A DNA stretch of 64,000 nucleotides from Verrucomicrobiia bacterium. GTDB taxonomy: Bacteria > Verrucomicrobiota > Verrucomicrobiia > Limisphaerales > UBA11358. The stretch lies in the NCBI GenBank assembly GCA_031290985.1, contig JARLJW010000086.1:845-64844 (forward strand), written 5' to 3'. This document shows, one piece after another, positions 1 through 12,675 of this stretch; within the stretch, counting starts at the first letter, position 1; each line of letters opens with the position of its first letter. Under the pieces are notes generated by a model that was not told the origin of the DNA, ran no database searches, and saw only the letters and a list, made by a program, of their open reading frames with translations. The position numbers and the translations under genes were made by a program.

Positions 1-345
1 TAAAACCCACTCTGTGAACGGTTCGAGCCAATCGGCTCGCCCGGTCGTCAGACCGTCAATTTGACCCTCCAAAGACTTCTTTTGGCTCATCAATCGCGTT
101 TTCTCGGCAGTGTAGTCCTCCCGTTCAATCACTGCGTCGAGAAACGAATCAAAGAGCCTTTGAAGGCGAAGATTGATGGCCTGAATCTCAGCGCGCTTCT
201 CGGCGACCACTTTTGCGGCGGATTGGGCCGACTGCTTCTTTTCCTCTTTAACCCGTGTAAGCATGTCGTCCGCCCAATCCGGCCGCAACTCAAACGGTTT
301 AATGAGCGCGGAGATTTGGGCATCGAGGGCTTCTTCGCGGATGTG
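1..345 (-). pseudogene. C-terminal remnant of a large serine recombinase (zinc-ribbon tail plus coiled coil); runs off the window edge
   Basis: Manual translation: HIREEALDAQISALIKPFELRPDWADDMLTRVKEEKKQSAQ...LQRLFDSFLDAVIEREDYTAEKTRLMSQKKSLEGQ...WLEPFTEWVL. In-frame TAA stops lie just upstream at 346-348 and 367-369 (*KRETNC*HIREE). No catalytic domain is visible. Confidence 0.65.
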
Positions 346-544
346 TTAGCAATTGGTTTCGCGCTTTTAGGCGCTGTGCGCTGTCCCCGACTTCGGTCGG
401 TTTTATGGCTCGCGCGGCCCCTTCAATGTGGATGCCGCGCTCGCCAAAAACCTCCCTCATCGCTCACGCGAGAAACGGGTTCACCCACGGACAAGTCAAA
501 TTTTTCTCTGAAAAATCAACGCCGCTGTTAAGCGGCGAAATTTA

Positions 545-1555
545 TTATTTAATATCCAAGACTAAATTGCGTTTCTTGATGTCATTGTATCGCCCTTGCG
601 ATTGCACGCCGAAAAACACCTCAACCTGCAACCGATACGGACGGTAGTCGCCGGGCTTGCCGTTCCAAGATACTTTTGAATTTCCCGTGATCACGATCGA
701 GGAGGAGGGCAAAACTTCGGTTAATTTTCCCATCACGCCTCCACCTGACATTTCCGTCACGCATTCAATTCCAGGCATATGACCGGTCTGAAATTCATCG
801 CCGCGACTATTCCGTAAGCTCAAGTCGGGCCACGGCATACCGGCATATTGGGCTTTCATAGCGACGCCATAGGTATCGGTCGCGCTGGTGTTCGTGATTA
901 CGAGAGAAAAATTGACCGCCCCGGAATAGTCATCGCCAGTGTCTAGTTGGAATGAATCAATCTTTATGTTTAGGTCGCCGAACGGTTTGGGTTTTGGGGC
1001 CGTTGGCTGGGCTGCTTCGCCTGTGTTCGCCGCATCATCTACCTTGGCCGCCTGGGACAACATCTGCTGAACCGTATCGTCAGTGTCGAATTTGGCTTTT
1101 GCGCCGCCTACTACCTCGGCGGTTTCAACGGAAATCACTTTGACTGTCACATTGATATTTTTCCCGACGGGGGTAATCGTGCCGAAAAGCATGGCATCCA
1201 CGCCTGAGAACATGCCGAGCTTCTTGGCGTTCTCCGGGTTAACAAGTCCGGACGCATCCAATTTATGCTCGCCTAATATTCGCTTGAGATTGGCGCGATC
1301 CAAAACGGAGAAGTCGCGCTTGGACATCGTAAAATCCACAGTCAATTGTTCGGCGACGTATCTGCCAAGTTCGCTTGTGCCTCCTTGCAAGTCGGTGAAA
1401 TCCAGCACGGTCACTTTTTTGTTCCCGTTCTCCTTGATCTTCGCGGCGACATCTTCGGTCAATTTTGTTATCGCAGAGTCCATGTCATCTGCACGGACAA
1501 CATGGCAGCAAAAAGCGATGCACAAGATGGTTGCCAAAAGACGATGTGATTTCAT
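545..1555 (-). CDS. Secreted CsgG/HfaB/FlgO-like protein with an unknown C-terminal domain
   Basis: Signal peptide; KVTVLDF...LGRYVAEQL...VLDRANLKRILGEHKL...AKKLG...GVDAMLFGTI pattern. Confidence 0.7.
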   Translation of the reverse strand: MKSHRLLATILCIAFCCHVVRADDMDSAITKLTEDVAAKIKENGNKKVTVLDFTDLQGGTSELGRYVAEQLTVDFTMSKRDFSVLDRANLKRILGEHKLDASGLVNPENAKKLGMFSGVDAMLFGTITPVGKNINVTVKVISVETAEVVGGAKAKFDTDDTVQQMLSQAAKVDDAANTGEAAQPTAPKPKPFGDLNIKIDSFQLDTGDDYSGAVNFSLVITNTSATDTYGVAMKAQYAGMPWPDLSLRNSRGDEFQTGHMPGIECVTEMSGGGVMGKLTEVLPSSSIVITGNSKVSWNGKPGDYRPYRLQVEVFFGVQSQGRYNDIKKRNLVLDIK

Positions 1556-1568
1556 GTTTGGAAAGTTT

Positions 1569-1865
1569 CTAAAGCCCCAGGGACATTTTGGTGTCGGTTT
1601 CGATTTGTTTAAGGATGCGCTCCTCGGCCATCACTCGCGCGTCTCCGCGTCGGAACCCGGTGCCGTTGGCAGAGAGCGTCCAGGATTGGCTCTGGTTTTG
1701 ACCGGTCACCGGCAGTGTCGCGATCTCAAGAGTCATGTTCGCAGTGATGACGTTGTTCAAATCGGCGTTGGTTTCATAGGAGACGGTTTCCCGCCAGCGA
1801 GTAATGAGGCACACGATAATGGCGGGTGTTTTGGGCTTGTGTAGAACAGGGAGCTTTTCCACCAT
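1569..1865 (-). CDS. Hypothetical protein
   Basis: ORF lies between the repressor and the CsgG-like gene in the same orientation. Start uncertain: the frame is open to 2027 but overlaps the repressor there. Confidence 0.4.
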   Translation of the reverse strand: MVEKLPVLHKPKTPAIIVCLITRWRETVSYETNADLNNVITANMTLEIATLPVTGQNQSQSWTLSANGTGFRRGDARVMAEERILKQIETDTKMSLGL

Positions 1866-1953
1866 TATGGCGGACTCGAATTGTGTTTGGCATAGCTGTC
1901 TTTCATGGTTCGGGTCTTCGGCTCTGGCGGTGGTATAAACACTGCCAGGGCTT

Positions 1954-2769
1954 TTATTTTTGCCCGCGTTGCTCGACCCATTGAAGCAAACGTAGGGTGA
2001 GATCAGCACTTGGGGCACCGGAACCATTCAGCCATTTATTTACAGCCTGGCGAGAGGTGTCTAAGTCCCGCGCCAGTTGAGCCTTTGCACCTTTTTCTGA
2101 GGTCGCAATGGCAAGCTGTTTTTGCAGAGCCTTCCAAGTTCTGATTTTGGCACTCACAAAATTGATACTATCAGCCGCACCCGTATTGTCAACCTCTGGT
2201 TTACATCCCTTCAAACCCCTATATTCCGGCTCTTCCAAGACTTTTAATAAAACATTTTTTGCGATGCTTCCCACACGAGCAGTTTCCATCAAAACATGGT
2301 TAAGCCTTTTAACCGGCCCAGCCATCACTCTCAGTGCTTCTTCCCGTTCCTTTTTTGGAACCGTTTCATCGGTAAAGACATGAAGCAGTTCTAAGATCAA
2401 TTTGGTGCCATGCTTCACGCTTGCCGTTCGCTGTTCGCGATGGGCTTTAATTTGGGCGGCAAGATGTTTATCAAATACCTCTGTGAATATGAAGTGACGC
2501 GGTATTTTATCAATGAAATCAGAGTCATTGAATGAATCTTTTATCTGCGGCAACCCAATGCCGTCATTAAGCCAGCCAGGGTAAAGATCGTAGCGTTTGG
2601 ATATGCTTCTAAAAACCCAATAGGGCAACCGGGCACGGCCCGATTCATAGGCGGCAATTCGCTCGCCACCACAACCGATTGAGACGGCAAACTTGGTGCG
2701 CGGAATCTGTAGAATTTCCCGAAACGCCCGCAGTCGCGCACCGATCATTTTTTCACGTTCGGATATCAA
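1954..2769 (-). CDS. XRE/cI-like repressor with two HTH domains
   Basis: N-terminal IGARLRAFREILQIPRTKFAVSIGCGGERIAAYESGR and C-terminal KAQLARDLDTSRQAVNKWLNGSGAPS. Confidence 0.75.
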   Translation of the reverse strand: MISEREKMIGARLRAFREILQIPRTKFAVSIGCGGERIAAYESGRARLPYWVFRSISKRYDLYPGWLNDGIGLPQIKDSFNDSDFIDKIPRHFIFTEVFDKHLAAQIKAHREQRTASVKHGTKLILELLHVFTDETVPKKEREEALRVMAGPVKRLNHVLMETARVGSIAKNVLLKVLEEPEYRGLKGCKPEVDNTGAADSINFVSAKIRTWKALQKQLAIATSEKGAKAQLARDLDTSRQAVNKWLNGSGAPSADLTLRLLQWVEQRGQK

Positions 2770-2819
2770 GCGTGCTGATTATCTCAAGTTTAAGCAGCAT
2801 CGGCGATAACGTTTTGGCT

Positions 2820-2835
2820 TTACAACATATTGTAA
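2820..2835. promoter_or_regulatory. Palindromic operator candidate TTACAA-CATA-TTGTAA
   Basis: Perfect 6-bp inverted repeat between the divergent repressor and cro-like genes. Confidence 0.55.
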
Positions 2836-2855
2836 TATGGTAATTGTTGCCAAAG

Positions 2856-3044
2856 ATGTTGTATGCCCGCAAGTCATATCAAAAACCAAAGCCGCTGGAT
2901 TTAGACCGGCGGGCCGCCTTGCTTGGCTGCACGCCTAGCCATCTCTCACGCGTTCTGGCCGGTAAGCGGCAAAGCGCCAGTCTTCAAATCCGGCTGGCAA
3001 AATTGATCGAAATCGAAACCACCCCAACCAAGGCTAAAATATGA
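2856..3044 (+). CDS. Cro-like small HTH protein
   Basis: RRAALLGCTPSHLSRVLAGKRQS HTH; divergent from the repressor; ATGA overlap with the next gene. Confidence 0.65.
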   Translation: MLYARKSYQKPKPLDLDRRAALLGCTPSHLSRVLAGKRQSASLQIRLAKLIEIETTPTKAKI

Positions 3045-3721
3045 ATCCCTCACTTCACTGGGCTCAACTCGTCAAACGCGTCATGTCCGAAAAACGTTGC
3101 AACTATTCCGGCGCTTGGCGGCTTGCCGCCGCTGCTCACCCGGATGCAGCCACCCTGATGAGCGCCTTTGGCCGTACGCGGCAGCAGGCCAGTTTTTTCA
3201 ACTCTCGCGGAAATCACCAAACCACTCCGCAAAAGGCCGAAGCCGGCAAGAAGCTGGCCAAGTTTGCGAACGAAAAAGTAAAGCCCGGTATGCCCTACGG
3301 TCAGGCGTGGAATGCGGCCTGCCGTGATAACCCCGAATGGGCCGCCGCGTTTGACGGTGGAACGCCCCAAGCCCGCCCTGGTTGGGATCAAACCGCCCGT
3401 GGCCATATCGCCCAGGTTGGCCGCGCTGGCGCTCGCTCTCAATTCGCGAATGCAACGGCCGGCACCGCGCCGGCCGCCACGTCGGAAATCAAAAAATTGT
3501 TCTGGTTGCCGGACCATGCCACCCAGGATCAATTCGAGGCCGCCTTTAAGGGCAATAACTCGGCGTTGTCTCCGTTGAGTCCCGGTAAGATATTTGCTGC
3601 CCTGGTGGAACTCACGCAAACCCAGCGTGGCATTGATTACGATGCCGCCATTGCGCAAACCAAGGCCGCCTTCCCTGATCTGTGGAAAGCCGTGCAACTG
3701 CTCGCACAGGAACCGATCTAA
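3041..3721 (+). CDS. Hypothetical phage-like protein with three repeated helical motifs (scaffold-like)
   Basis: WAQLVKRVMSEKRCNYSGAW..HPD / FANEKVKPGMPYGQAW..NPEW / FAALVELTQTQRGIDYDAAI..FPDLW. Confidence 0.7.
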   Translation: MNPSLHWAQLVKRVMSEKRCNYSGAWRLAAAAHPDAATLMSAFGRTRQQASFFNSRGNHQTTPQKAEAGKKLAKFANEKVKPGMPYGQAWNAACRDNPEWAAAFDGGTPQARPGWDQTARGHIAQVGRAGARSQFANATAGTAPAATSEIKKLFWLPDHATQDQFEAAFKGNNSALSPLSPGKIFAALVELTQTQRGIDYDAAIAQTKAAFPDLWKAVQLLAQEPI

Positions 3722-3748
3722 CCCACCGCAACCCCCAACAACATCACC

Positions 3749-4324
3749 ATGAAAATCACCATAAGCGAAAACCACCTGGCCGAAATCAAAAAGTTGCGCA
3801 AGCAACTCACGGCCGTTTTGGGCACTCAAACCACGGCCACGGCCGAATATGAGCGGCTGCTGAAAAAGCAGGCAACCTTGCAGGGCGAAATTGCCGAACT
3901 GGAAGATTCTGAAAGCGACTCTGCCGCCGCGTCGCTCTCTACCAAGCGCGAGCAACTCAAAGCCGTGGAACGGAAAATCACCGCGATTGAAGGAACTCCC
4001 GCGTCTGATTCCGTCCGCGAGCAGGCCGAAATTGGCAACCTGCTGAAACAGTTTGCCCGCTCGGCCGCCGCCGCCACGGGAGCGGACTGTGAGGCATACG
4101 CCCGCAACGTCGCGGCCCTGATCCGGGAACATTGCAAGGATGAGCTTACCGCTTATGGCCTGGCCCTTCAGACATCGGCGGTGATTTCGCTTTTCCAGAA
4201 ATGCACCTGGCCTTACGGAACCTACTCGGCTGGCGTGAAGGAAATTAAAAAGGCCATTGCCCATGCTGACGAAATATTGGCCGGTGAACTGGTTTGGAGC
4301 TTTGATCCGAAAATCAAAGCCTAA
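3749..4324 (+). CDS. Hypothetical coiled-coil protein (191 aa)
   Basis: Heptad-rich N-terminal half; co-oriented in the cro operon. Confidence 0.7.
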   Translation: MKITISENHLAEIKKLRKQLTAVLGTQTTATAEYERLLKKQATLQGEIAELEDSESDSAAASLSTKREQLKAVERKITAIEGTPASDSVREQAEIGNLLKQFARSAAAATGADCEAYARNVAALIREHCKDELTAYGLALQTSAVISLFQKCTWPYGTYSAGVKEIKKAIAHADEILAGELVWSFDPKIKA

Positions 4325-4345
4325 TCGCCCGGCCACGCCACCGCC

Positions 4346-4594
4346 ATGAAAGACCAACTGATTCAGATTCTCGGCCTTAAACCCGCCGCTGGCGCTGCCG
4401 AATGCACGGACGCGGAGATAGTGGCCGCCGTCGCGGAATTGAAGCGCCGGGACGATGCCAGCGCGGCCACGGCGGCAAAGGAAAGGGCCATCACCGATCT
4501 GGTTAATCAATCCCTTGGCGCTCTCTCCCGCGATTCAGCGCGGGAGATTGTTGAAGAGCGGACCCGCACCGAAGCTTGGAAGCGTGGAAAATAA
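4346..4594 (+). CDS. Small hypothetical protein resembling the scaffold region of Mu-like protease I
   Basis: LIQILGL...TDAEIVAAVAELK pattern. Confidence 0.6.
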   Translation: MKDQLIQILGLKPAAGAAECTDAEIVAAVAELKRRDDASAATAAKERAITDLVNQSLGALSRDSAREIVEERTRTEAWKRGK

Positions 4595-4672
4595 AATGCT
4601 AGCTGAATTAAATTTCGCCGCCGTTGTTGGTTCAGCCATGGCAGTGGCTGGTGTTTGCGGCGTGCGCACGGA

Positions 4673-4710
4673 TGGCGGCTCCCTGGCCCTTTTTCACCGG
4701 GGAGCCGCCA
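4673..4710 (+). terminator. Strong hairpin (14-bp stem) after the phage-like operon
   Basis: tggcggctccctgg...ccggggagccgcca; weak U-tract. Confidence 0.4.
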
Positions 4711-4762
4711 AGAATTTTAGCCCCGCGACGAATTTAACCGCCAGAGGATTGCGGTTTCCCAA

Positions 4763-4798
4763 GGCGGGGGAACGGGATGCAAATTCCGTTTCCCCGCC
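4763..4798 (+). terminator. Second GC-rich hairpin
   Basis: ggcgggggaacggga-tgcaaa-ttccgtttccccgcc followed by ccttt. Confidence 0.4.
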
Positions 4799-4821
4799 CC
4801 TTTAATCTCCAAATTAAAGCC

Positions 4822-5115
4822 ATGAAAAATCCTCAATCAAATCCAAGCCAGGTGCGCAACGAAGCTCGCAAATCCAAAATAGGTGCGCTGACCGCCGCAC
4901 AACGCGCAACCCTGGTGCGTTGGTTGATGCAACAACAACGCGCCGAAATCACCATCGCCAAGGATCAAAAAAACCGCCGCACCGCCGCGAACAAAAGCAA
5001 GGCCCGCCGCATGTCCGGCTCGGACCTCCGCGCGCGCCGCCTCTTGCCAACCAACGCGTTCGATTTCACAAGGACGCCGGCTATTGCCATCAACCTCGCC
5101 CAAAATCCGGGCTGA
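4822..5115 (+). CDS. Hypothetical protein; N-terminus resembles DUF3486/Mu gp27; possibly truncated
   Basis: ARKSKIGALTAAQRATLVRWL. Confidence 0.4.
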   Translation: MKNPQSNPSQVRNEARKSKIGALTAAQRATLVRWLMQQQRAEITIAKDQKNRRTAANKSKARRMSGSDLRARRLLPTNAFDFTRTPAIAINLAQNPG

Positions 5116-5175
5116 AAGCCCGCAATGTAACAGCCCAAGCTGAAAGCCTGGAAACACATCCCCAAAAACACATCC

Positions 5176-5315
5176 AGCCCTGTCAGGGCAAAACAAAACC
5201 CACCGCCCGGAGTGCCGGCCTCCGGCACGGCACCTCCAGCTCCGTCAGGAGCGAAATCTTTGTAGTTTCATTGCCCACAATAAATAGAAATCCCCAGTCC
5301 CGTCAGGGGCGACAT
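5176..5315. repeat. Three spaced REP-like hairpins with a GTCAG core
   Basis: agccctgtcagggc (5176), agctccgtcaggagcg (5238), agtcccgtcaggggcg (5296); about 60-bp spacing. Confidence 0.6.
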
Positions 5316-5393
5316 ATGCCCCGTCCCGCAAAAAAAATTCCCGTGAATTTTCCATCACAAACCTCAATGCGCTGAAGACGCTATAGATATTAA

Positions 5394-5425
5394 CCGGGGG
5401 TTGCCGTTCCAACGGCTACCCCCGG
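5394..5425. terminator. 15-bp near-perfect inverted repeat between convergent transcription units
   Basis: ccgggggttgccgtt-cc-aacggctacccccgg. Confidence 0.55.
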
Positions 5426-5523
5426 GAATGATTCCCGCTACATGCCAAAGGGATGAGCTTCCGCTGTGGTGCCTAAGAATTGAGTCTAGGGTTGAACCGG
5501 CGCTGCGAACCATCCTTTATGCC

Positions 5524-6816
5524 TCAATAAACGAGTACGATCACAACACATTGCTGCACTTTATCCACTGCCGATCCCTTGCTCACCCCGCCCGCCGCCA
5601 GTTTGATTTCCGGCGACCGGCTGATGAAATCACGCAACAATCTCCCCTTGATCGCATAGTTCACATTTTGAGGAATGCTCCCGACCGAACGCAACGCCGC
5701 GATGTCGTCTAATTTGGCCACTATCACGCCCTGCAAATCGCCAGCTAAATCCACCAGCGGCCCGCCGGAATTGCCCGGTTGCACCGGCACGCTGATTTGA
5801 AATTCATCCGGATCATCCTTCAAACCCATCAAGCTGCTGATTTTTCCATCGGTATATTTCGGCTGTGTCCCCTGAAGTTTGATGTCGGGAAAACCGATGG
5901 TGAAAACTGCGTCGCCAAGGCTCACCGCGTTCGTCGCGAAAACCAGGGACTTGAATTGCCCCTCAACTTTCAACAATGCCAAGTCTGCCAGAGCATCCGT
6001 GCGCACCACCGTTGCCGGGAAAACACCCGAACCTGTTTTCACCTTTACCCGCCTTGCGTTTTTTACGACATGATTATTTGTGATCAGATACCCATCTTCG
6101 GAAATAAAAAAACCCGAACCCGACGCGTTCAAATCATCACTGTCTGGTAGCGATGCCACCACATCAACTTGTGAAACACCCCCCACTAACGCATCGGCAA
6201 ATGGTTTGGCACCCGACAAAACCGCTTCCGGGATTTCTGACCGGCTGCAAATCTTGCCAAAGTCAACCGCTCGGATAGTCCGGTCATCATCCTTCTTGTT
6301 TATGTAGCTGTAAGTGCCGCTGGGCAAGGCGGAGAATGTCACATAATCCGTATCGCTAACCGCCTTCAATTTTTTAACAAAAATCGCTACATGGTTCTCA
6401 TACGAATTGGGCGTGGTGTCAATGATGGCACCATCCTCAAGCACTTGGACAACTTTCGCGTTAATGATTTTCACCCATCCGGACTGTGGCTTACGGATAT
6501 CATACACCACGCCCTCGACTTCTCGAAAACAACCTGTTTTAACCGCCCGATCAAGGTTGCTTTCCGCAGTCGTGGCCTCTGCGACCTTCGCTTCGGCCTG
6601 GTTAATGTTCCACGATTTAAGAAAATCCGCAGGCAACTTGTCGAGGTTGGCTGAAGTTCCACCACCATCATACAAGATGATAATTCTGCCGCCTGATCCA
6701 ACGTAAACCCTGTTGATATTGGTATAGGTATTGCCGTTTAGCTGAAGGCTAGTCACCCCTTCACCCGCCGCACTCAAGCAGGCCAAGACCAGAAATAGCG
6801 AAAGCAAAGCTTTCAT
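5524..6816 (-). CDS. Secreted trypsin-like (S1C) serine protease with N-terminal accessory domains
   Basis: Signal peptide; GSGFFIS, TNNHVV, DLALL and GNSGGP triad motifs; no PDZ domain. Confidence 0.9.
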   Translation of the reverse strand: MKALLSLFLVLACLSAAGEGVTSLQLNGNTYTNINRVYVGSGGRIIILYDGGGTSANLDKLPADFLKSWNINQAEAKVAEATTAESNLDRAVKTGCFREVEGVVYDIRKPQSGWVKIINAKVVQVLEDGAIIDTTPNSYENHVAIFVKKLKAVSDTDYVTFSALPSGTYSYINKKDDDRTIRAVDFGKICSRSEIPEAVLSGAKPFADALVGGVSQVDVVASLPDSDDLNASGSGFFISEDGYLITNNHVVKNARRVKVKTGSGVFPATVVRTDALADLALLKVEGQFKSLVFATNAVSLGDAVFTIGFPDIKLQGTQPKYTDGKISSLMGLKDDPDEFQISVPVQPGNSGGPLVDLAGDLQGVIVAKLDDIAALRSVGSIPQNVNYAIKGRLLRDFISRSPEIKLAAGGVSKGSAVDKVQQCVVIVLVY

Positions 6817-6887
6817 GAAAAGAACGGTAAAAACGAAAGCCGACTCCGTCAATAAATTTGTCGCATTTGTCGCAATCCCAGATTCCC

Positions 6888-9431
6888 CTACGTCAAACTC
6901 CCCACCCTCCTCAGTTTCAACCCCGGCTCTCCCGCCTTCCTCGCCTCCGCCAAATCCACCTCAAACTCCGCCACCCAGTCATTGTTCTCCTCCGGATCCA
7001 CCAGCATCTGCTGCACCTTCCACGTCTTCTTGTCCTCTGACGGCACCACGTACGTATGCCGCACATTGCGCGCGTTCGGATCCAGGCAGATGTATTTATG
7101 CTCCGCGTGATACGCCTCCAGCACCGCCTCCAACCGCGCGACCGTCCACGGCTGGCCGTCGGCATCCAAGGGCGACGCCAGATGCGTTAGCGCCGTTTCC
7201 AGATCCCCGATCACCAGCCCGCGCAAAAAGGCAAAAATCTTGTTCCTGATCGCCGCCGTGAAACCCTTTGTATCGCGCGTGATGTCGTTTTCCTCCGCTC
7301 CGGCCGGCCGGACTTCCTTGGTCTCGACGCGTTGATAATTCGGGTCGCGCATCTTCTCCCATTCATCCAGCAGACTGGAATCGATCTGCCGGATCATCGC
7401 GCCGAGGTAGATTTCCATCTCGCGCACGGTGTCGTTCTTCGCCGCATCCGGCACGCCTTGGGACAGCACCTTGAACACGCGGTTCAGATACCGCAGCAAC
7501 ACGCCTTCCGCCCGTTGCAATTCATAATCCCGGATGTAATCCGCAAACGACCGGAATGACTCGAACATCTCGCGCGCGATGGATTTGGGCCGGATGTTTT
7601 CCTCGCCCACCCACGGGTGAGTCGCGGCAAAGTTATTGAACGTGGAATACACAAACTCCCGGTTCGGCTTCGGGTACTCGCACTTCTCCAGTTCCTCCAT
7701 CCGCTCGTCGTATTCTTTTCCGGCCATCTTCATCTCCGCCATCTTCTGGTCCTTCACGCGGTCGAGCTGCTTGCGCAAGATGATGTCCGGGTCTTCCACG
7801 ATGGATTCCACCAGCGTCAGCAGCACCAGCGCATAATCCGGCGCCTGCGGATCCATCAACGGCAGCGTGTCATGCAGGTACAGCGACAGCGCCTGGTCCA
7901 TCGAAAAATCATCCTGCAACGCCACATTCACCCGCAGATACGACCCGTCCGCCGCCTTGGGGATGAATTCAATGATCTTCCGGTCGATCAACGAACGGAA
8001 CAACTGCCACGCGCGCTTCACATGCGCCACCTTCTGGCGCGGCGTCTCGTGACAATCATGGATCAACGTCTGCATCGCCTTGCAGCCGTCGCCATGCCGG
8101 CTCAGCACATTCAGCAACATCCCGTGCGAAACTTGAAACCGCGACACCAGCCGTTCCGGCGACGCCGCGATGAGCCGCAGGTAGGTGTTCTTGTCCCAGT
8201 TCACGAAATTCTTTTCCGGCGGCTGGCGCTTCACCGTCTTCTTGCCATCGCGCGCCGTCTTTTCCGCGAGCTTGAGATTTTCGATCACATGCTCCGGTGC
8301 CTGCGCCACCACCCAGCCTTGATCGTCAAAACCTTTCCGCCCCGCCCGCCCGCTGATCTGGTGAAAATCCCGCGCCGACAAAATGACCGTCTTCTGCCCG
8401 TCAAATTTGCACAGGCGTGTGAACAGCACCGTGCGGATGGGCACATTCACGCCCACGCCGAGCGTATCCGTGCCGCAGATGACTTTTAACAATCCCTTCT
8501 GCGCGAGCTGTTCCACCAGCACCCGGTACTTCGGCAGCAATCCCGCGTGATGCAGGCCGATGCCGTGCCGCAGCCACTTCTTGATCTCCGGTCCGTACGG
8601 GCTGCTGAACTTGAAATTTTCAATGGCATTGCCGATGGCCGCCTTCTCCTCACGCGTGCAGACGTTGATGCTGGTAAAATCCTGCGCGCTCTGCGCCGCC
8701 TCCAGTTGCGTGAAGTGGACCACATACACCGGCGCGCGTTTGTCCGCCACCAGGCTCTCCAATGTCTTCGCCAGCGGCAGCTCGGAATACTCATGCTTTA
8801 GCGGCACCGGCCGGTCGGTGGAAGCCACCGTCACCGTCGGCCGCCCCGTCAACCGCGTAAGCTCCGTTTCAAAAAACGCCGTGTCCCCCATCGTGGCGGA
8901 CATCAACAGAAACCGCGTCTGCGGCAAGGTGAGCAACGGGGTCTGCCACGCCACCCCGCGCTCGCGGTCCGCGTAATAATGAAATTCGTCCATCACCACA
9001 TCGCGTACGTTGGCCGACGCCCCCTCGCGCAACGCGATGTTCGCCAAAATTTCCGCCGTGCAGCACAAGATCGGCGCGCTCTGGTTCACCGAAGCGTCCC
9101 CGGTGCTCAGCCCCACGTTGTCCGGGCCGAATTCCCGGCACAGCGCCATGAACTTCTCATTCACCAGCGCCTTGATCGGGCAGGTGTAAATCGACCGCCG
9201 TCCCTGTGCGATGGCCTGGAAATGCAGCGCCGTCGCCACCAGCGATTTCCCGGAACCGGTCGGCGTGTTCAGGATGACATTCTTGTCATCGAACACCTCC
9301 AAGATCGCCGCTTCCTGCGCCGGATACAGCGTCAGCCGCCGCGCCTCGACATATTGCAGAAAGCGCCCGAGCAAAACATCGCTGGTGGGACGTTCCTCGC
9401 GCGGAAGCAGATCATAAAGATTCGTGGCCAC
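6888..9431 (-). CDS. Ski2-like DEAD/DEAH-box helicase (DUF3516 type)
   Basis: [29 protein letters not shown]. Confidence 0.93.
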
Positions 9432-9618
9432 AATAAATTAAAAACCCGCGGCTAAAAAATTGAATTCAAATTCACACCGCAGATTGGAAACGCCCCGCCC
9501 CCTTTGAGCAACCAAATTCCTGCAATAATCCCCCCATTTATTCGTGAAAACTTCGCTGGATAACCAAAACGATTGCCCAACCGCCCGAAATCGCCCCGCC
9601 CTTTCCCTTCTCTTGGGG

Positions 9619-9929
9619 CTTATCCTTACCCACATCTTTCCGGCGGCCATATCAAGTTGCGGCTCTGGGGCTTCCCCCGCATCCGCGAGGAAGCGTGCCT
9701 TAAAATAGAATAACGCGCCCGGGCGGGTGGAAGCTGAAGCGGCGTAAACGCCGCGCCCCAGCCAAAGGAGCGCGACCTTGAGGTCGCTTCAATGCCCAAA
9801 CCGACGCGGGCAGGATCATGGTTGAGCGCGCACATCTTGGCGGGCAGCATTTGCAAGTAATTCCCATATAAAAATTTAGGCGATGGGCTTGGCTTAAAAA
9901 TCTCGGTGGAAAATGTGGGTAAGGATAAG
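9619..9929. mobile_element. 311-bp miniature inverted-repeat element, IS4/IS50-like
   Basis: 19-bp ends CTTATCCTTACCCACAT(C/T)T (18/19 identical); flanking 9-bp direct repeat CTCTTGGGG at 9610-9618 and 9930-9938. Confidence 0.85.
9736..9790. repeat. Inverted doublet of GGAG-type REP-like hairpins inside the miniature element
   Basis: gaagcggcgtaaacgccgcgcccc and ggagcgcgaccttgaggtcgcttc, with compensatory stem changes. Confidence 0.7.
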
Positions 9930-10011
9930 CTCTTGGGGGGAGCAGTAAATCCATCTATGACTATTGATATTACTGCGAAGCTCGGCCGCGGACTTCATCC
10001 AGACCAGCCCG

Positions 10012-10569
10012 TTATTGGCCCGGTCCGGCGCCGATCATCTCCGTGCGATATTTTGGGAGAAGCCCCAAGATTTTTGCCATTAAAGCGGCCTGAGTTGCCT
10101 CATCCGTTGCGGGCGCGGGTGCCGTCCGCGTGGCCACTGGAACCCCGACCGCGAGAAAAAGTTCTTCCTGTCCTGCGGGCGCGCAGATGCAAAGCAACCG
10201 TGCCGGTTGCTGGGAAGCGTTGGTAAAGCAATGTGGCGCGTTCGCCGGGATGCTGATCGTCTGCCCGGCACGCACGGTCGATTTTTTGCCGCGAAAAGTG
10301 GCTTCGATCTCGCCTTCGAGGACGGTAAACGATTCCTCGAAGTCGTGGCGATGCGGCGGCGGGCCGCCGCCCGGCGGAACGTGCATGTCAATGAGGCAAT
10401 AACGACCGTTGGTATCCCCGCCGCTGAGCAAAATGGTATAGGTATCTCCCGCGATGCCAAGGTGGCAAAGGCCGGGGCCGTGGTCGGGGTCCGCGACGGT
10501 GAGATTGCGGAGGAGGTTGTCTGCCGGAACCGGCGTAATGGACTGCGCAGTGATGGAATTGGGATTCAT
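10012..10569 (-). CDS. Cupin domain protein
   Basis: GPPPHRHDFEESFTVLEG...IPANAPHCF. Confidence 0.9.
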   Translation of the reverse strand: MNPNSITAQSITPVPADNLLRNLTVADPDHGPGLCHLGIAGDTYTILLSGGDTNGRYCLIDMHVPPGGGPPPHRHDFEESFTVLEGEIEATFRGKKSTVRAGQTISIPANAPHCFTNASQQPARLLCICAPAGQEELFLAVGVPVATRTAPAPATDEATQAALMAKILGLLPKYRTEMIGAGPGQ

Positions 10570-10606
10570 GACATTGATTTTATGGGACTGTTCCCGGATG
10601 GATGGT

Positions 10607-11245
10607 TTAACCGGCAATGACCGGAGCCTGTCGCTGATAATGTTTGTCCGCCAGTTCCCGGAGGCAAAAGGCGGCGACGTCCGGGCGGCTGATGGTGCCG
10701 ACGTGTATCCCGGCCAGCTCTGTGAAGGCTTTGACGGCTGGTACCCCTTTGGCGGAGCCGTTGGTCAGGATCGCCGGACGCACCAGTGTCCAGTCAAGCC
10801 CGCTGGCACGCACGATCTCTTCCTGGCGGGTTTTGTCATGGTAAACTACCCGCAGCATCAATGGCTGGAACAGCCAGTTATAATACCAGGGCCCATGGCC
10901 CTTGCTCTCGCCCGCGCCGATGCCGGTGAGGCAAATTAAACGGCTGACCCCCTGGGCCTTCATGGCGGCAACCAGATTGCGCGTGCCTTCCGAGAGCAGG
11001 GTTATCTCCTTGAAGGGACCCGAGGCCGCCGAACCCAGGGAGCAAATCACGGCTGCCTGACCCGACAACGCTTTTTCCAGGGAACTGGCGTCAAGGACGT
11101 TGCCCGGCGCTAATTTAACGGCGGCCGGAAAAGCGGCCTTGGACGCATTCCGCACCAGGGCGGTGACGACATGCCCCTGGGCCAACGCCTGGCTGACGAT
11201 TTCCCTGCCGGTGGGTCCGGTGGCACCGATGACGAGCAGATTCAT
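10607..11245 (-). CDS. NAD(P)-binding oxidoreductase (atypical SDR, flavin-reductase-like)
   Basis: IGATGPTG, DWTLVRP, ISRPDVA; start trimmed to MNLLVIG. Confidence 0.9.
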   Translation of the reverse strand: MNLLVIGATGPTGREIVSQALAQGHVVTALVRNASKAAFPAAVKLAPGNVLDASSLEKALSGQAAVICSLGSAASGPFKEITLLSEGTRNLVAAMKAQGVSRLICLTGIGAGESKGHGPWYYNWLFQPLMLRVVYHDKTRQEEIVRASGLDWTLVRPAILTNGSAKGVPAVKAFTELAGIHVGTISRPDVAAFCLRELADKHYQRQAPVIAG

Positions 11246-11335
11246 AATAAAGAACCGATACCCTATTTTTTCGCCCATGCAAGGGCTACCTGCTTCGCGA
11301 TGGAGAAGGCCAGGATGAGGGCGGACAACAAAACG

Positions 11336-11373
11336 TTCCATCCTCCATCTTCGATTCTCCATCCTCGTTAAAA
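11336..11373 (+). repeat. 38-bp direct repeat, copy 1
   Basis: 35/38 identical to 12740-12777. Confidence 0.75.
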
Positions 11374-11427
11374 ACCGCAAAATAATCTGTTCGCTTTTGG
11401 CGTCGCCGGTCATATACCCATGAGATC

Positions 11428-12675
11428 ATGAATGACGACCAGACGTTGCTGCGGGAATTCGCGGCGTCCCATTCCGAAGCCGCCTTTGCCGCGCTGGTGT
11501 CGCGGCACGTCAATCTGGTCTATTCCGTGGCCCTGCGGCAGGTGCGCGACCCGCATCTGGCCGAGGAGATCACCCAAGCCGTGTTCATCATTCTCGCGAG
11601 GAAGGCGGATAAATTGTCACCGCCCACGGTGCTGGCCGGCTGGCTGTGCCGCACAGCGCGTTATGTCGGCGCCGGGGCGTTGCGGACCCAACACCGCCGT
11701 CAGCAGCGCGAACAGGAGGCCCACATGCAATCCCTTTTGAACGAACCGGAATCACCCGCCTGGACGCACATCGCCCCGCTGCTCGATGGGGCGATGGAAA
11801 CGCTGGACCGGAAGGATCACGACGCGCTGGTGCTGCGTTTTTTTGAGAATAAAAACTTTGCGGAAGTCGGCGTCGCGCTGGGCACGGGCGAAGACACCGC
11901 CCGGATGCGCGTGAATCGCGCGCTGGAAAAGCTGCACCGCTTTTTCAACCGGCACGGGATTTCTTCCACCACGGCCATCATTGCCGGGGAAATTTCCGCC
12001 CACTCCATTCAAGCCGCGCCGGTGGCGCTGGCAAAATCTGTGACCGCCGTGGCGATTGCCAAAGGCGCGACCGCGTCCCTCTCAACTTTAACCCTCATCA
12101 AAGGAGCCTTGAAAATTATGGCGTGGACAAAAGTAAAAACGGCAACTGTCGTCGGCGTGAGTTTGCTGCTTGCGGGCGGGACCGCAACGGTGGTCATGAA
12201 AGCCATCGCCGGGCACCAGCCTTATCCCGCCCCGCGCACAACCCCGGCCACGGCCAGCATCAAGGGCCAGGTGGTGAGTCCGGCACAACTGGTTGACGCG
12301 GGCAACACCACGCCCGAAGCCGCTTTGGAAACACGTTTTTGGGCGCGGGCCAATGGCGATTATGACGGCGTCCTCGCCGCGACCGATCCGCACGTCCAGC
12401 ATGTGACCAAGAATTGGATGGGCGACCGGGCGACCTTCCGCGGCCGATCCCAAGACGATTTCACCTCGATCAAGGGCGTGCAAATTGCCGCCCGCAAAGA
12501 CCTGGCCGCTGACCGGGTGGAGTTGGAATACCAATTGACCTACTTGGATCCCAAAACTCCGCCGTTCGCCAAGATCGTTGAAATGGTCAAGTTTAACGGC
12601 GCATGGTTTAGCAACCAAACCCGCTCCAATGATGCGGGTTGGGATGTCGTGAGCCAGCCGGAGCCGCAGCCTTGA
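11428..12675 (+). CDS. ECF sigma factor with C-terminal TM and extracytoplasmic extension
   Basis: [26 protein letters not shown], region-4 HTH, then a hydrophobic segment. Confidence 0.9.

What the first reader, a model, noticed from the sequence alone, without database searches (positions are those of the whole stretch)
1..5430. Satellite-like element with packaging-mimic ORFs but no capsid or replication genes
Seen: a serine-recombinase tail with stop codons, a divergent cI/cro-like pair around a palindrome, and a short rightward operon of four small ORFs ending in hairpins and REP-like repeats. Known: PICIs and P4-like satellites have an integrase, a switch, and proteins that hijack helper capsid assembly and packaging. 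Inference: the ORFs resemble only scaffold and small-terminase parts of a Mu-like head module, so this may be a decayed satellite of transposable-phage-like helpers in Verrucomicrobia. I know of no description of such a satellite.
Basis: partly seen in the sequence, partly recalled or inferred. Interest (0 to 1): 0.7.

Follow-up and report, generated by a model that had tools for sequence, protein, structure and literature searches.

The report
Gutted tRNA-homing mini-Mu element remnant
This stretch is the broken remainder of a small mobile element that normally moves with phage-Mu-type transposition proteins and lands just behind tRNA genes. Here the transposition genes are lost, and the surviving genes show no detectable likeness to phage head or packaging proteins.

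Summary

- **Surviving genes.** Three of the four rightward ORFs (orf226, orf191, orf82) are genuine conserved proteins. They have no hit in Pfam, PHROGs or NCBIfam, no match in 50,697 phage genomes, and no significant Foldseek match to any head, scaffold or terminase structure.
- **Intact relatives.** In Verrucomicrobiota metagenomes these three genes open a rightward operon in 10-13 kb elements. The layout is: tRNA, left end, cargo, XRE repressor, small HTH, orf226-191-82, further unannotated ORFs, a MuA-like transposase, a MuB-like ATPase, right end.
- **Transposition module.** The transposase profile matches MuA (hhalign E 4e-6) and the ATPase profile matches MuB (E 4e-10).
- **Target site.** Thirteen of 14 elements sit 12-16 nt behind a tRNA or tmRNA gene, with TG..CA ends and 4-5 bp duplications.
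- **This copy.** It keeps only the switch and three genes. Homology to a second, also gutted, copy on contig C71 stops at 4722. No transposase, ATPase or element ends were found. orf112 is an orphan whose start codon lies inside a hairpin.
- **Recombinase tail.** It is a real remnant of a separate element that integrates into tRNA genes.

Whether the family is a phage satellite remains open. One distant member carries Mu portal-protease and tape-measure genes.

The parts
1..345 (-). C-terminal ~159 aa remnant of a large serine recombinase. It continues 132 nt left of the window and abuts tRNA-Val(gac) at C48:604-678. The catalytic, recombinase and zinc-ribbon domains are deleted.
   Evidence: 66-70% identity to congeners, among them a full-length 535-aa serine recombinase (L022) whose 3' end overlaps a tRNA gene. 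PHROG 95 integrase, E 2.8e-5. Stops upstream.
545..1555 (-). 336-aa secreted or lipoprotein-like protein with a CsgG/FlgO-like domain. It is probably cargo of one of the two element remnants.
   Evidence: Pfam CsgG 6e-9 and FlgO 1e-7. Low G+C, 0.48-0.52. Not syntenic with relatives.
1569..2027 (-). orf152, the gene downstream of the repressor. Its N-terminal third is shared with the same position in C71 and L011; the rest is unique.
   Evidence: Window 1830-1989 is 82% identical in nucleotides to C71. The protein shows 81% identity over 42 aa to C71 and 48% over 58 aa to L011.
1954..2769 (-). xre271, the element's repressor, with an N-terminal XRE HTH and a second C-terminal HTH. It is the positional equivalent of Mu c.
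   Evidence: Pfam HTH_31 3.8e-10 and HTH_3 3.7e-7. PHROG 2328 transcriptional repressor 3.8e-11. 36% identical to the repressor of intact element L005 and 24% to the one in C71.
2770..2843 (.). Divergent promoter and operator region with nested inverted repeats.
   Evidence: Inverted repeats at 2821-2831/2853-2863 (11 nt, 91%), 2826-2831/2834-2839 and 2820-2825/2830-2835. Promoter-like site on the minus strand at 2853-2824.
2844..3044 (+). hth66, a small Ner/Cro-position HTH protein and first gene of the rightward operon.
   Evidence: Weak Pfam HTH_31 hit, E 0.0027. 59% identical to the 68-aa gene at the same position in L011 and L012.
3041..3721 (+). orf226, a conserved all-helical protein of unknown function found only in this element subfamily.
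   Evidence: 16 homologues, all in Verrucomicrobiota metagenomes. AlphaFold pLDDT 75. No Foldseek match with E below 0.49. No family or phage hit.
3749..4324 (+). orf191, a conserved protein with a three-long-helix bundle and a small C-terminal domain, function unknown.
   Evidence: Nine homologues. AlphaFold pLDDT 89. Only generic coiled-coil matches, E at least 0.28, in PDB and BFVD. 95% identical to the C71 copy.
4346..4594 (+). orf82, a small conserved protein and third member of the module.
   Evidence: 91% identical to C71 and 44-48% to L008 and L011 at the same position.
4722..4723 (.). Deletion or rearrangement breakpoint, where homology to the paralogous and intact elements ends.
   Evidence: blastn: window 3038-4722 matches C71 at 90.5% and stops there. 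Unitigs of four runs span 4689-5777.
4763..4798 (+). Strong terminator-like hairpin (16-bp stem) just past the breakpoint.
4777..5115 (+). orf112, an orphan ORF and doubtful gene. It might be a much-diverged scrap of a transposase C-terminal tail.
   Evidence: No relative among 1.84 billion representative proteins. Start codon inside the hairpin. Only 7.4 bits against the transposase profile tail and BLAST 34 bits.
5165..5425 (.). Three short GTCAGG-centred hairpin repeats, one REP-like GC hairpin and a 15-bp-stem hairpin. These are not element ends.
   Evidence: Unitig depth spike at 5001-5250. No right-end motif of the family.
5524..6852 (-). Trypsin-like serine protease. It is still inside the non-syntenic, lower-G+C island and is not part of the Mu-like remnant proper.
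   Evidence: Pfam Trypsin_2 1e-25. Absent downstream of the helicase orthologue in five congeners. Its closest homologue, in genome G021 (same genus), also lies beside a tRNA.

Best explanation
Window 1-~5400, with the 170 nt to its left, is a composite graveyard of two mobile elements that used tRNA-Val(gac).

**The main part (about 1830-4722).** It is an internally deleted, immobile remnant of a 10-13 kb 'mini-Mu' element family of Verrucomicrobiota.

**How intact members are built.**
- An XRE-type repressor faces a small Ner/Cro-position HTH protein across an operator with inverted repeats.
- The rightward operon runs through orf226-orf191-orf82 and several further unannotated ORFs.
- It ends in a MuA-like transposase, whose catalytic triad reads D-E-E, and a MuB-like AAA+ ATPase.
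- Both ends carry TG..CA inverted repeats with subterminal repeats.
- The element inserts 12-16 nt behind a tRNA or tmRNA gene in a fixed orientation and makes a 4-5 bp duplication.

**What the window copy lacks.** Everything right of orf82 is gone, including the transposase, the ATPase and the right end. The left end is gone as well. It therefore cannot move, and no intact transposase/ATPase pair exists elsewhere in this 94%-complete genome.

**What it keeps (inferred, not shown).** The repressor, the small HTH protein and the three conserved ORFs remain, ending at a hairpin. This cassette is probably still expressed. It could still repress or interfere with incoming relatives.

**The leftmost 345 nt.** They are the C-terminal scrap of a large serine recombinase from a second element. 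That element integrated into the tRNA gene later and was then mostly deleted.

**Shown:** homology, gene order, the MuA and MuB relationships, ends and duplications in relatives, and the absence of these parts here.
**Inferred:** the order of events, and any residual function of the cassette.
For: **Paralogue and homologues**
- A paralogous copy lies on C71: orf226 84%, orf191 95%, orf82 91% identical.
- blastn homology is limited to window 3038-4722 and 1830-1989.
- The orf226 family has 16 members, all Verrucomicrobiota.

**Gene order in intact relatives**
- Contexts L005, L008, L010, L011, L038, L039 and L040 share the same gene order. It ends in an 810-930 aa protein plus an AAA_22 protein, followed by host genes.

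**Transposition module**
- Transposase: 12 of 16 members hit Pfam Mu-transpos_C (best E 2e-7) and 2 hit DDE_2.
- The transposase profile against phage Mu MuA gives hhalign probability 87%, E 4e-6, over 436 columns. MuA D269/D336/E392 align with invariant D396/E466/E511.
- The ATPase profile against MuB gives probability 96.7%, E 4e-10.

**Target site and ends**
- A tRNA or tmRNA gene lies beside 13 of 14 elements, always in the same orientation.
- Inverted terminal repeats and 4-5 bp direct repeats were found in C71, L011, L008, L015 and L017.

**State of the two copies in this genome**
- C71 keeps both ends but only about 60 aa of the transposase (HMM E 2.8e-17).
- No transposase or ATPase was found in the window or elsewhere in the genome.
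- No family end motif occurs in the window.
- dN/dS is 0.20-0.22 for the three ORFs.
- Unitigs span the junctions.

**Recombinase remnant:**

Earlier notes of this scan describe the same family independently. I treat them as leads only.
Against: - The left end of the Mu-like element could not be located in the window. Which remnant the lipoprotein gene and orf152 belong to is therefore a guess.
- The reading of orf112 as a transposase tail is not statistically supported. The right-hand deletion could instead be a replacement by unrelated DNA.
- The contig begins 844 nt left of the window, at a group II intron fragment, and synteny with relatives is poor. No empty site could be shown.
- The genome is a 94%-complete metagenome bin, so an intact helper copy could lie in unassembled sequence.
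- The transposase match to MuA is distant (87% probability). PDB sequence searches found nothing.
- The D-E-E triad is unusual and untested.
Confidence: 0.75

Rival explanations
1. One reading: a phage satellite, now decayed, whose four ORFs mimic scaffold and small-terminase functions to hijack the capsid assembly and packaging of a Mu-like helper.
For: - The family has a phage-type switch and Mu-type transposition genes but no full virion module.
- One distant member (L018) carries a Mu portal fused to Mu protease I and a tape-measure homologue. Two others have weak tape-measure-like proteins.
- orf191 is a long helical bundle, which is the general shape of many scaffolding proteins.
- Earlier scan notes report capsid genes in other members (not checked here).
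Against: - No sequence or fold similarity of orf226 or orf191 to any scaffold, terminase or capsid protein: best Foldseek E 0.28-0.49, and no PHROG or Pfam hits.
- No match in 50,697 phage genomes.
- No relative of the module or of the transposase in 2.9 million IMG/VR viral contigs.
- No Mu portal homologue in this genome by tblastn.
- The portal and tape-measure genes occur only in members that lack orf226-191-82.
Confidence: 0.07
2. The remnant is not mere debris. The repressor, small HTH protein and orf226-191-82 cassette is retained because it benefits the host, for instance as an immunity or exclusion module against incoming elements or phages of the same family.
For: - Two independently gutted copies in one genome (C48 and C71) both keep exactly this cassette intact.
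- dN/dS is about 0.2 between them.
- The repressors differ strongly (24% identity) while the flanks are 82-90% identical. This is as expected for distinct immunity types.
- The cassette ends at a strong hairpin.
Against: - The purifying signal may date from before the deletions.
- There is no expression data; only DNA runs were found.
- No defence-family search was made, and none of the proteins has a known function.
- 60 relatives, 36 of them congeners, lack the genes, so there is no sign of fixation.
Confidence: 0.15
3. A non-autonomous 'mini' element, still mobile in trans with transposase supplied by an intact relative, as laboratory mini-Mu is.
For: The sister copy on C71 retains both inverted terminal repeats and a CAGTT duplication while lacking the transposase and ATPase genes. 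It fits this description.
Against: - The window copy has no recognisable left or right family end.
- No intact transposase is present in the genome.
Confidence: 0.03

Closest known systems
Bacteriophage Mu early region and laboratory mini-Mu (ends + c + ner + A + B)
   Same: In intact relatives:
- A leftward repressor faces a small HTH protein.
- The rightward operon contains a MuA-like transposase (hhalign E 4e-6) and a MuB-like AAA+ ATPase (E 4e-10).
- The ends are TG..CA inverted repeats with subterminal repeats and short target duplications.
   Different: - There are no virion or lysis genes, and the elements are only 10-13 kb.
- The transposase and ATPase genes lie at the far right end, behind 5-10 unannotated ORFs, rather than directly after ner.
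- The catalytic triad reads D-E-E.
- Insertion is site- and orientation-specific behind tRNA genes, whereas Mu inserts almost at random.
- The window copy has lost the transposase, the ATPase and both ends.
Tn7-like transposons (TnsB/TnsC/TniQ-TnsD), including those that home to tRNA genes (for example CAST I-B2, I-D and V-K; PMC10293859)
   Same: A Mu-superfamily transposase plus an AAA+ adaptor. Insertion occurs at a fixed distance and in a fixed orientation downstream of a conserved gene, here tRNA or tmRNA genes.
   Different: - No TniQ/TnsD domain was detected among 60 accessory ORFs, and no TnsA or CRISPR components were seen.
- Insertion is 12-16 nt from the tRNA end, against about 30 nt reported for the CAST I-D element of Cyanothece (CyCAST).
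- Control is by a phage-type repressor switch.
- I did not test relatedness to TnsB directly.
Phage satellites (P4-like, PICI, cfPICI, PLE)
   Same: Small size, a lysogeny-type switch, location at tRNA genes, and the absence of most virion genes. A few distant family members carry single virion genes.
   Different: - Mobility is by MuA/MuB-type transposition rather than by an integrase.
- No primase-helicase replication module is present.
- The window ORFs show no capsid-redirecting or terminase-like protein.
- No helper is known.
Large serine recombinase integrative elements
   Same: The leftmost 345 nt encode the conserved C-terminal coiled-coil and tail of such a recombinase. As in congeners, the gene runs into the tRNA gene.
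   Different: Only the last ~159 of ~535 residues remain, so there is no catalytic domain. This is a different element from the Mu-like remnant.

Membership tests
Mu-type transposable element (MuA/MuB) | DDE transposase of the MuA family | tested here: not met
   It is absent from the window and from the rest of the genome. It is present in intact relatives: Mu-transpos_C in 12 of 16 members, and hhalign against MuA gives 87% probability, E 4e-6, with the catalytic positions aligned as D-E-E.
Mu-type transposable element (MuA/MuB) | MuB-like AAA+ target-capture ATPase next to the transposase | tested here: not met
   It is absent from the window. It is present in relatives: Pfam AAA_22, and hhalign against MuB gives 96.7% probability, E 4e-10.
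Mu-type transposable element (MuA/MuB) | Repressor and small-HTH divergent switch at the left side | tested here: met
   xre271 (-) and hth66 (+) flank inverted repeats. Both are homologous to the genes at the same positions in intact elements.
Mu-type transposable element (MuA/MuB) | Terminal inverted repeats (TG..CA) with a short target duplication | tested here: not met
   None was found in the window. They are found in C71 (CAGTT), L011, L008, L015 and L017.
Mu-type transposable element (MuA/MuB) | Virion (head, tail, lysis) genes, as in a transposable phage | tested here: not met
   No such Pfam or PHROG hit occurs in the window or in L005, L008, L011, L038-L040. Only L018 has portal-protease and tape-measure genes.
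Phage satellite (PICI / P4-like) | Own functional integrase | tested here: not met
   Only a 159-aa C-terminal scrap of a serine recombinase remains, and it belongs to another element type.
Phage satellite (PICI / P4-like) | Proteins that redirect the helper's capsid assembly or packaging (scaffold-like, TerS-like) | tested here: not met
   The AlphaFold models of orf226 and orf191 gave no significant Foldseek match in PDB or BFVD. There are no family hits. orf82 and orf112 were not modelled.
Phage satellite (PICI / P4-like) | Helper-dependent packaging and transfer | not testable with these tools
   It needs induction and virion sequencing. There are no relatives in IMG/VR.
Tn7-like transposon | TniQ/TnsD target selector | tested here: not met
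   No TniQ family appears among the Pfam hits of 60 accessory ORFs from ten elements at E up to 1e-4. Remote homologues are not excluded.
Tn7-like transposon | Site- and orientation-specific insertion downstream of a conserved gene | tested here: met
   This holds at family level. 13 of 14 elements lie 3' of a tRNA or tmRNA gene, with the tRNA on the same strand as the transposase and ATPase genes.
Large serine recombinase | N-terminal resolvase catalytic domain with the active-site serine | tested here: not met
   It is present in the 535-aa homologue L022 (YARKST...). It is missing here: the frame upstream of residue ~376 is broken.

The most novel reading that the evidence does not exclude
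The element family is a new kind of phage satellite that replicates and moves by Mu-type transposition and homes to tRNA genes without a TniQ-type selector. On this reading, orf226-orf191-orf82 is an early module that manipulates a helper transposable phage or selects the tRNA target. The two gutted copies in this genome would be retained as immunity cassettes against that helper or against sister elements.
Probability: 0.15. Interest if true: 0.8.

Novelty: new variant of a known kind. Interest (0 to 1): 0.4.

Why it matters
The stretch itself is wreckage. It does, however, lead to a large family that I could not find described in the papers searched:
- The transposase forms more than 420 clusters at 90% identity, many 75-95% identical to each other.
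- The elements are compact and Mu-like.
- They combine a phage-style repressor switch with Tn7-style homing behind tRNA genes, apparently without a known target selector.

If the homing mechanism and the function of the conserved unannotated ORFs were worked out, that could give a protein-only, site-specific large-cargo insertion system. It could also show whether transposable phages have satellites. For annotating this genome, the practical result is simpler: the ORFs are not packaging genes, and the island is immobile.

Tried and rejected
- **Family searches on all window ORFs** (Pfam, PHROGs, NCBIfam): nothing for orf226, orf191, orf82 or orf112.
- **PDB sequence searches** with the transposase, as a single sequence and as a profile, and with the ATPase: no useful hit. 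The link to Mu came only from profile-against-MuA and profile-against-MuB comparisons.
- **orf112 as a remnant of the transposase C-terminus:** BLAST 34 bits and profile 7.4 bits in a tiny database, and no relative among 1.84 billion proteins. I left it as unproven.
- **An apparent left-end similarity just after tRNA-Val in C48**: rejected, because that DNA encodes the conserved recombinase tail.
- **Direct repeat of the tRNA 3' end,** to bound the recombinase island: none found.
- **Empty site:** the protease and helicase neighbours in congeners are not syntenic with the island, so no empty site was obtained.
- **Large protein upstream of the transposase as a tape-measure protein:** this holds for L018 and weakly for L015 and L016. 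It does not hold for the subfamily that contains the window's genes (hhalign probability 0.2%).
- **C25 locus as a third element copy:** it has no transposase or ATPase and no family hits.
- **The Portal_Mu search of the window's own genome** by the genome search was uninformative, because the control failed. tblastn with the L018 portal found nothing.
- **RNA evidence:** only DNA runs exist.

Full report
**Anatomy.** The window is C48:845-64844 of a 113-contig, 94%-complete bin assembled from bioreactor metagenomes. Left of the window the contig holds a group II intron reverse-transcriptase fragment at its very start and tRNA-Val(gac) at C48:604-678. The genes in and beside the finding are listed below.

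| Window coordinates | Strand | Feature |
|---|---|---|
| 1-345 | - | recombinase tail |
| 545-1555 | - | CsgG/FlgO-like lipoprotein |
| 1569-2027 | - | orf152 |
| 1954-2769 | - | two-HTH XRE protein (xre271) |
| 2844-3044 | + | 66-aa HTH protein (hth66) |
| 3041-3721 | + | orf226 |
| 3749-4324 | + | orf191 |
| 4346-4594 | + | orf82 |
| 4763-4798 | + | 16-bp-stem hairpin |
| 4777-5115 | + | orf112 |
| 5165-5425 | . | short hairpin repeats |
| 5524-6852 | - | trypsin-like protease |
| 6888-9431 | - | helicase |

G+C is 0.47-0.55 up to 3000 and again at 5500-7000, against about 0.6 from the helicase onward.

**The observation.** The recombinase tail is real. The 159 residues are 66-70% identical to genes in congeners that reach 501-538 aa. 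The one I read (L022, 535 aa) has the resolvase active-site motif, the recombinase domain and the zinc ribbon. In five of the six loci fetched, the window's own included, a tRNA gene (Val, Lys, Arg, Gly) lies at the recombinase 3' end, and the full-length L022 gene overlaps it. This is therefore an integrative element type of its own, and in the window only its last third survives.

The divergent HTH pair and the inverted repeats between them are confirmed. Three of the four rightward ORFs are conserved proteins. orf112 is an orphan whose start codon is inside the hairpin. Hairpins and a few dispersed short repeats follow. Unitigs from four sequencing runs span the critical junctions.

**What the three ORFs belong to.** The genome has a second copy on contig C71, with orf226 84%, orf191 95% and orf82 91% identical. 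At the nucleotide level the two copies match only over window 3038-4722 (90.5%) and 1830-1989 (82%). The repressors between these blocks are just 24% identical.

orf226 has 16 homologues in 5.8 billion protein clusters, all from Verrucomicrobiota metagenomes. Every long contig that carries one shows the same architecture:
- a tRNA gene, then a few variable genes;
- a leftward XRE repressor and a small rightward HTH gene;
- orf226-like, orf191-like and orf82-like genes;
- a ~200-aa, a ~150-aa and a 312-567-aa protein;
- an 810-930-aa protein and a 480-530-aa AAA_22 protein;
- then host genes.

Three further contexts were reached through the 810-aa protein. They have the same plan with other unannotated ORFs in the middle. 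No capsid, portal or terminase family hits any called gene in these contexts.

**The transposition module.** The 810-aa protein family is large: at least 421 clusters, and the best 120 are 75-95% identical to the query.
- 12 of 16 sampled members hit Pfam Mu-transpos_C (best 2e-7) and 2 hit DDE_2.
- Its profile aligns colinearly with phage Mu MuA over 436 columns (hhalign probability 87%, E 4e-6).
- MuA D269, D336 and E392 fall on the invariant D396, E466 and E511, giving a D-E-E triad.
- The neighbouring ATPase profile matches MuB across the Walker motifs (probability 96.7%, E 4e-10).

**Ends and target.** The elements have TG..CA inverted ends with element-specific subterminal repeats. In C71 the left end TGAATCTCCGCGCCAATTACTTCCGG pairs with the right end, whose reverse complement reads TGTATAGCCGCGCCGATTTTGTCCGG, and both are flanked by CAGTT. 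L011, L008, L015 and L017 show 4-bp direct repeats in the same register.

Thirteen of 14 independent elements begin 12-16 nt after a tRNA or tmRNA gene: Val-gac, Val-cac, Arg-ccg, Arg-cct, Leu-tag, Leu-gag, Met or tmRNA. The tRNA is always on the strand of the transposase gene. No TniQ/TnsD domain was found among 60 accessory ORFs.

**The window copy is gutted.**
- tblastn and a profile search find no transposase or ATPase in the window or anywhere else in the genome.
- The only trace is a ~60-aa N-terminal transposase stub on C71 (E 2.8e-17). That stub runs directly into an intact right end.
- C71 is thus an internally deleted copy that still has its ends.
- The window copy lacks even the ends: no family left-end or right-end motif was found.
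- Homology stops at 4722. What follows (hairpin, orf112, short repeats, protease) has no relative in the family.

The three ORFs show dN/dS of 0.20-0.22 between the two copies. They were under purifying selection for at least part of their divergence. Whether they still function cannot be told, because only DNA runs were available.

**Test of the packaging idea.** AlphaFold models built on the family alignments are good: orf226 has pLDDT 75 and is all-helical; orf191 has pLDDT 89, with three long helices and a small C-terminal domain. Foldseek against PDB and the viral BFVD library gives no match better than E 0.28. The top hits are generic helical bundles such as terpene synthases, STAT and Smac coiled coils, and tape-measure segments. 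tblastn against 50,697 phage genomes finds nothing. Neither the module nor the transposase has relatives in IMG/VR viral contigs. The claimed resemblance to scaffold and small terminase is therefore unsupported.

**What keeps the satellite question open.** Among six distant transposase/ATPase pairs found in a 401-genome sample of the phylum, one (L018) carries two virion genes upstream of the pair. One is a 728-aa tape-measure homologue (PHROG 24, 2e-19). The other is a 675-aa fusion of Mu portal and Mu protease I (Portal_Mu 2e-35, Mu-like_Pro 1e-14). Two others have weakly tape-measure-like proteins.

These members lack orf226-191-82. The large protein of the window's subfamily is not related to them. 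Earlier notes of this scan describe the same family in other genomes, some with a capsid gene. I did not verify those claims.

**Verdict.** The finding is a decayed, immobile fragment of a tRNA-homing mini-Mu element, next to a scrap of a serine-recombinase element. The family is, as far as the literature searches show, undescribed. It is a new variant within the Mu/Tn7 superfamily. The window itself adds only a degenerate member.

Noticed in passing
G000 contig C71:39,900-49,220 (locus L001:6,800-16,220): A second copy of the element lies beside tRNA-Arg(ccg). It has both inverted ends and a CAGTT duplication, but the transposase is cut to about 60 aa and the ATPase is gone. It is a natural 'mini' derivative that could be mobilised in trans.
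   Followed up: yes
Loci L005, L008, L011, L013-L017, L038-L040: Family-wide homing: 13 of 14 elements start 12-16 nt after the 3' end of a tRNA or tmRNA gene of varied identity, always in the same orientation. No TniQ/TnsD-like protein was detected.
   Followed up: partly
Alignment A1 (transposase family), positions D396/E466/E511 of L008:13306-15738: The residue aligned with MuA D336 is an invariant glutamate, so the predicted catalytic triad is D-E-E instead of D-D-E.
   Followed up: partly
L018 (G291:C87) 5,914-10,127: A ~12 kb member carries a tape-measure homologue followed by a single ORF fusing a Mu-type portal with Mu protease I. Both lie upstream of the transposase and ATPase genes, and no tRNA lies within 20 kb.
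   Followed up: partly
L011:15,470-15,530: The right end of this element is followed, after 4 nt (CCCG), by a second, inverted copy of the same end sequence. It may be a solo end or the footprint of an earlier insertion.
   Followed up: no
L020-L024 (congeners) and window 1-345: Large serine recombinase genes of this genus lie with their 3' ends at tRNA genes (Lys, Arg, Gly, Val), and the full-length one I read (L022) overlaps the tRNA. Many genomes keep only C-terminal tails of 94-300 aa, which suggests repeated decay at tRNA sites.
   Followed up: partly
G000 contig C25:40,500-48,700 (L037:6,512-14,687): An operon of large unannotated ORFs (803, 170, 569, 710 and 455 aa) has no family hits. 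The 569-aa protein is a homologue of the large protein found upstream of the transposase in the element family.
   Followed up: partly
C48:1-200 (left of the window): The contig starts inside a group II intron reverse-transcriptase gene (motif ...SYGFRPGRG, minus strand). This probably explains the assembly break.
   Followed up: no
window 5001-5250: Summed unitig depth is about 100, against about 13 on either side, in all four metagenome runs. A short sequence here is repeated many times in the community or genome (REP-like hairpin GTGCCGGCCTCCGGCAC and neighbours).
   Followed up: no
window 1954-2769 vs L001:13296-14282: The repressor genes of the two copies are only 24% identical, while the DNA on both sides is 82-90% identical. 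This is the mosaic pattern expected for swapped immunity regions.
   Followed up: partly
L030 (G021:C143) 8,580-11,635: The closest homologue of the window's trypsin-like protease (62%) also lies directly beside a tRNA, here tRNA-Arg(ccg). A fragment resembling the C-terminus of xre271 is nearby, so the protease may itself be mobile-element cargo.
   Followed up: no
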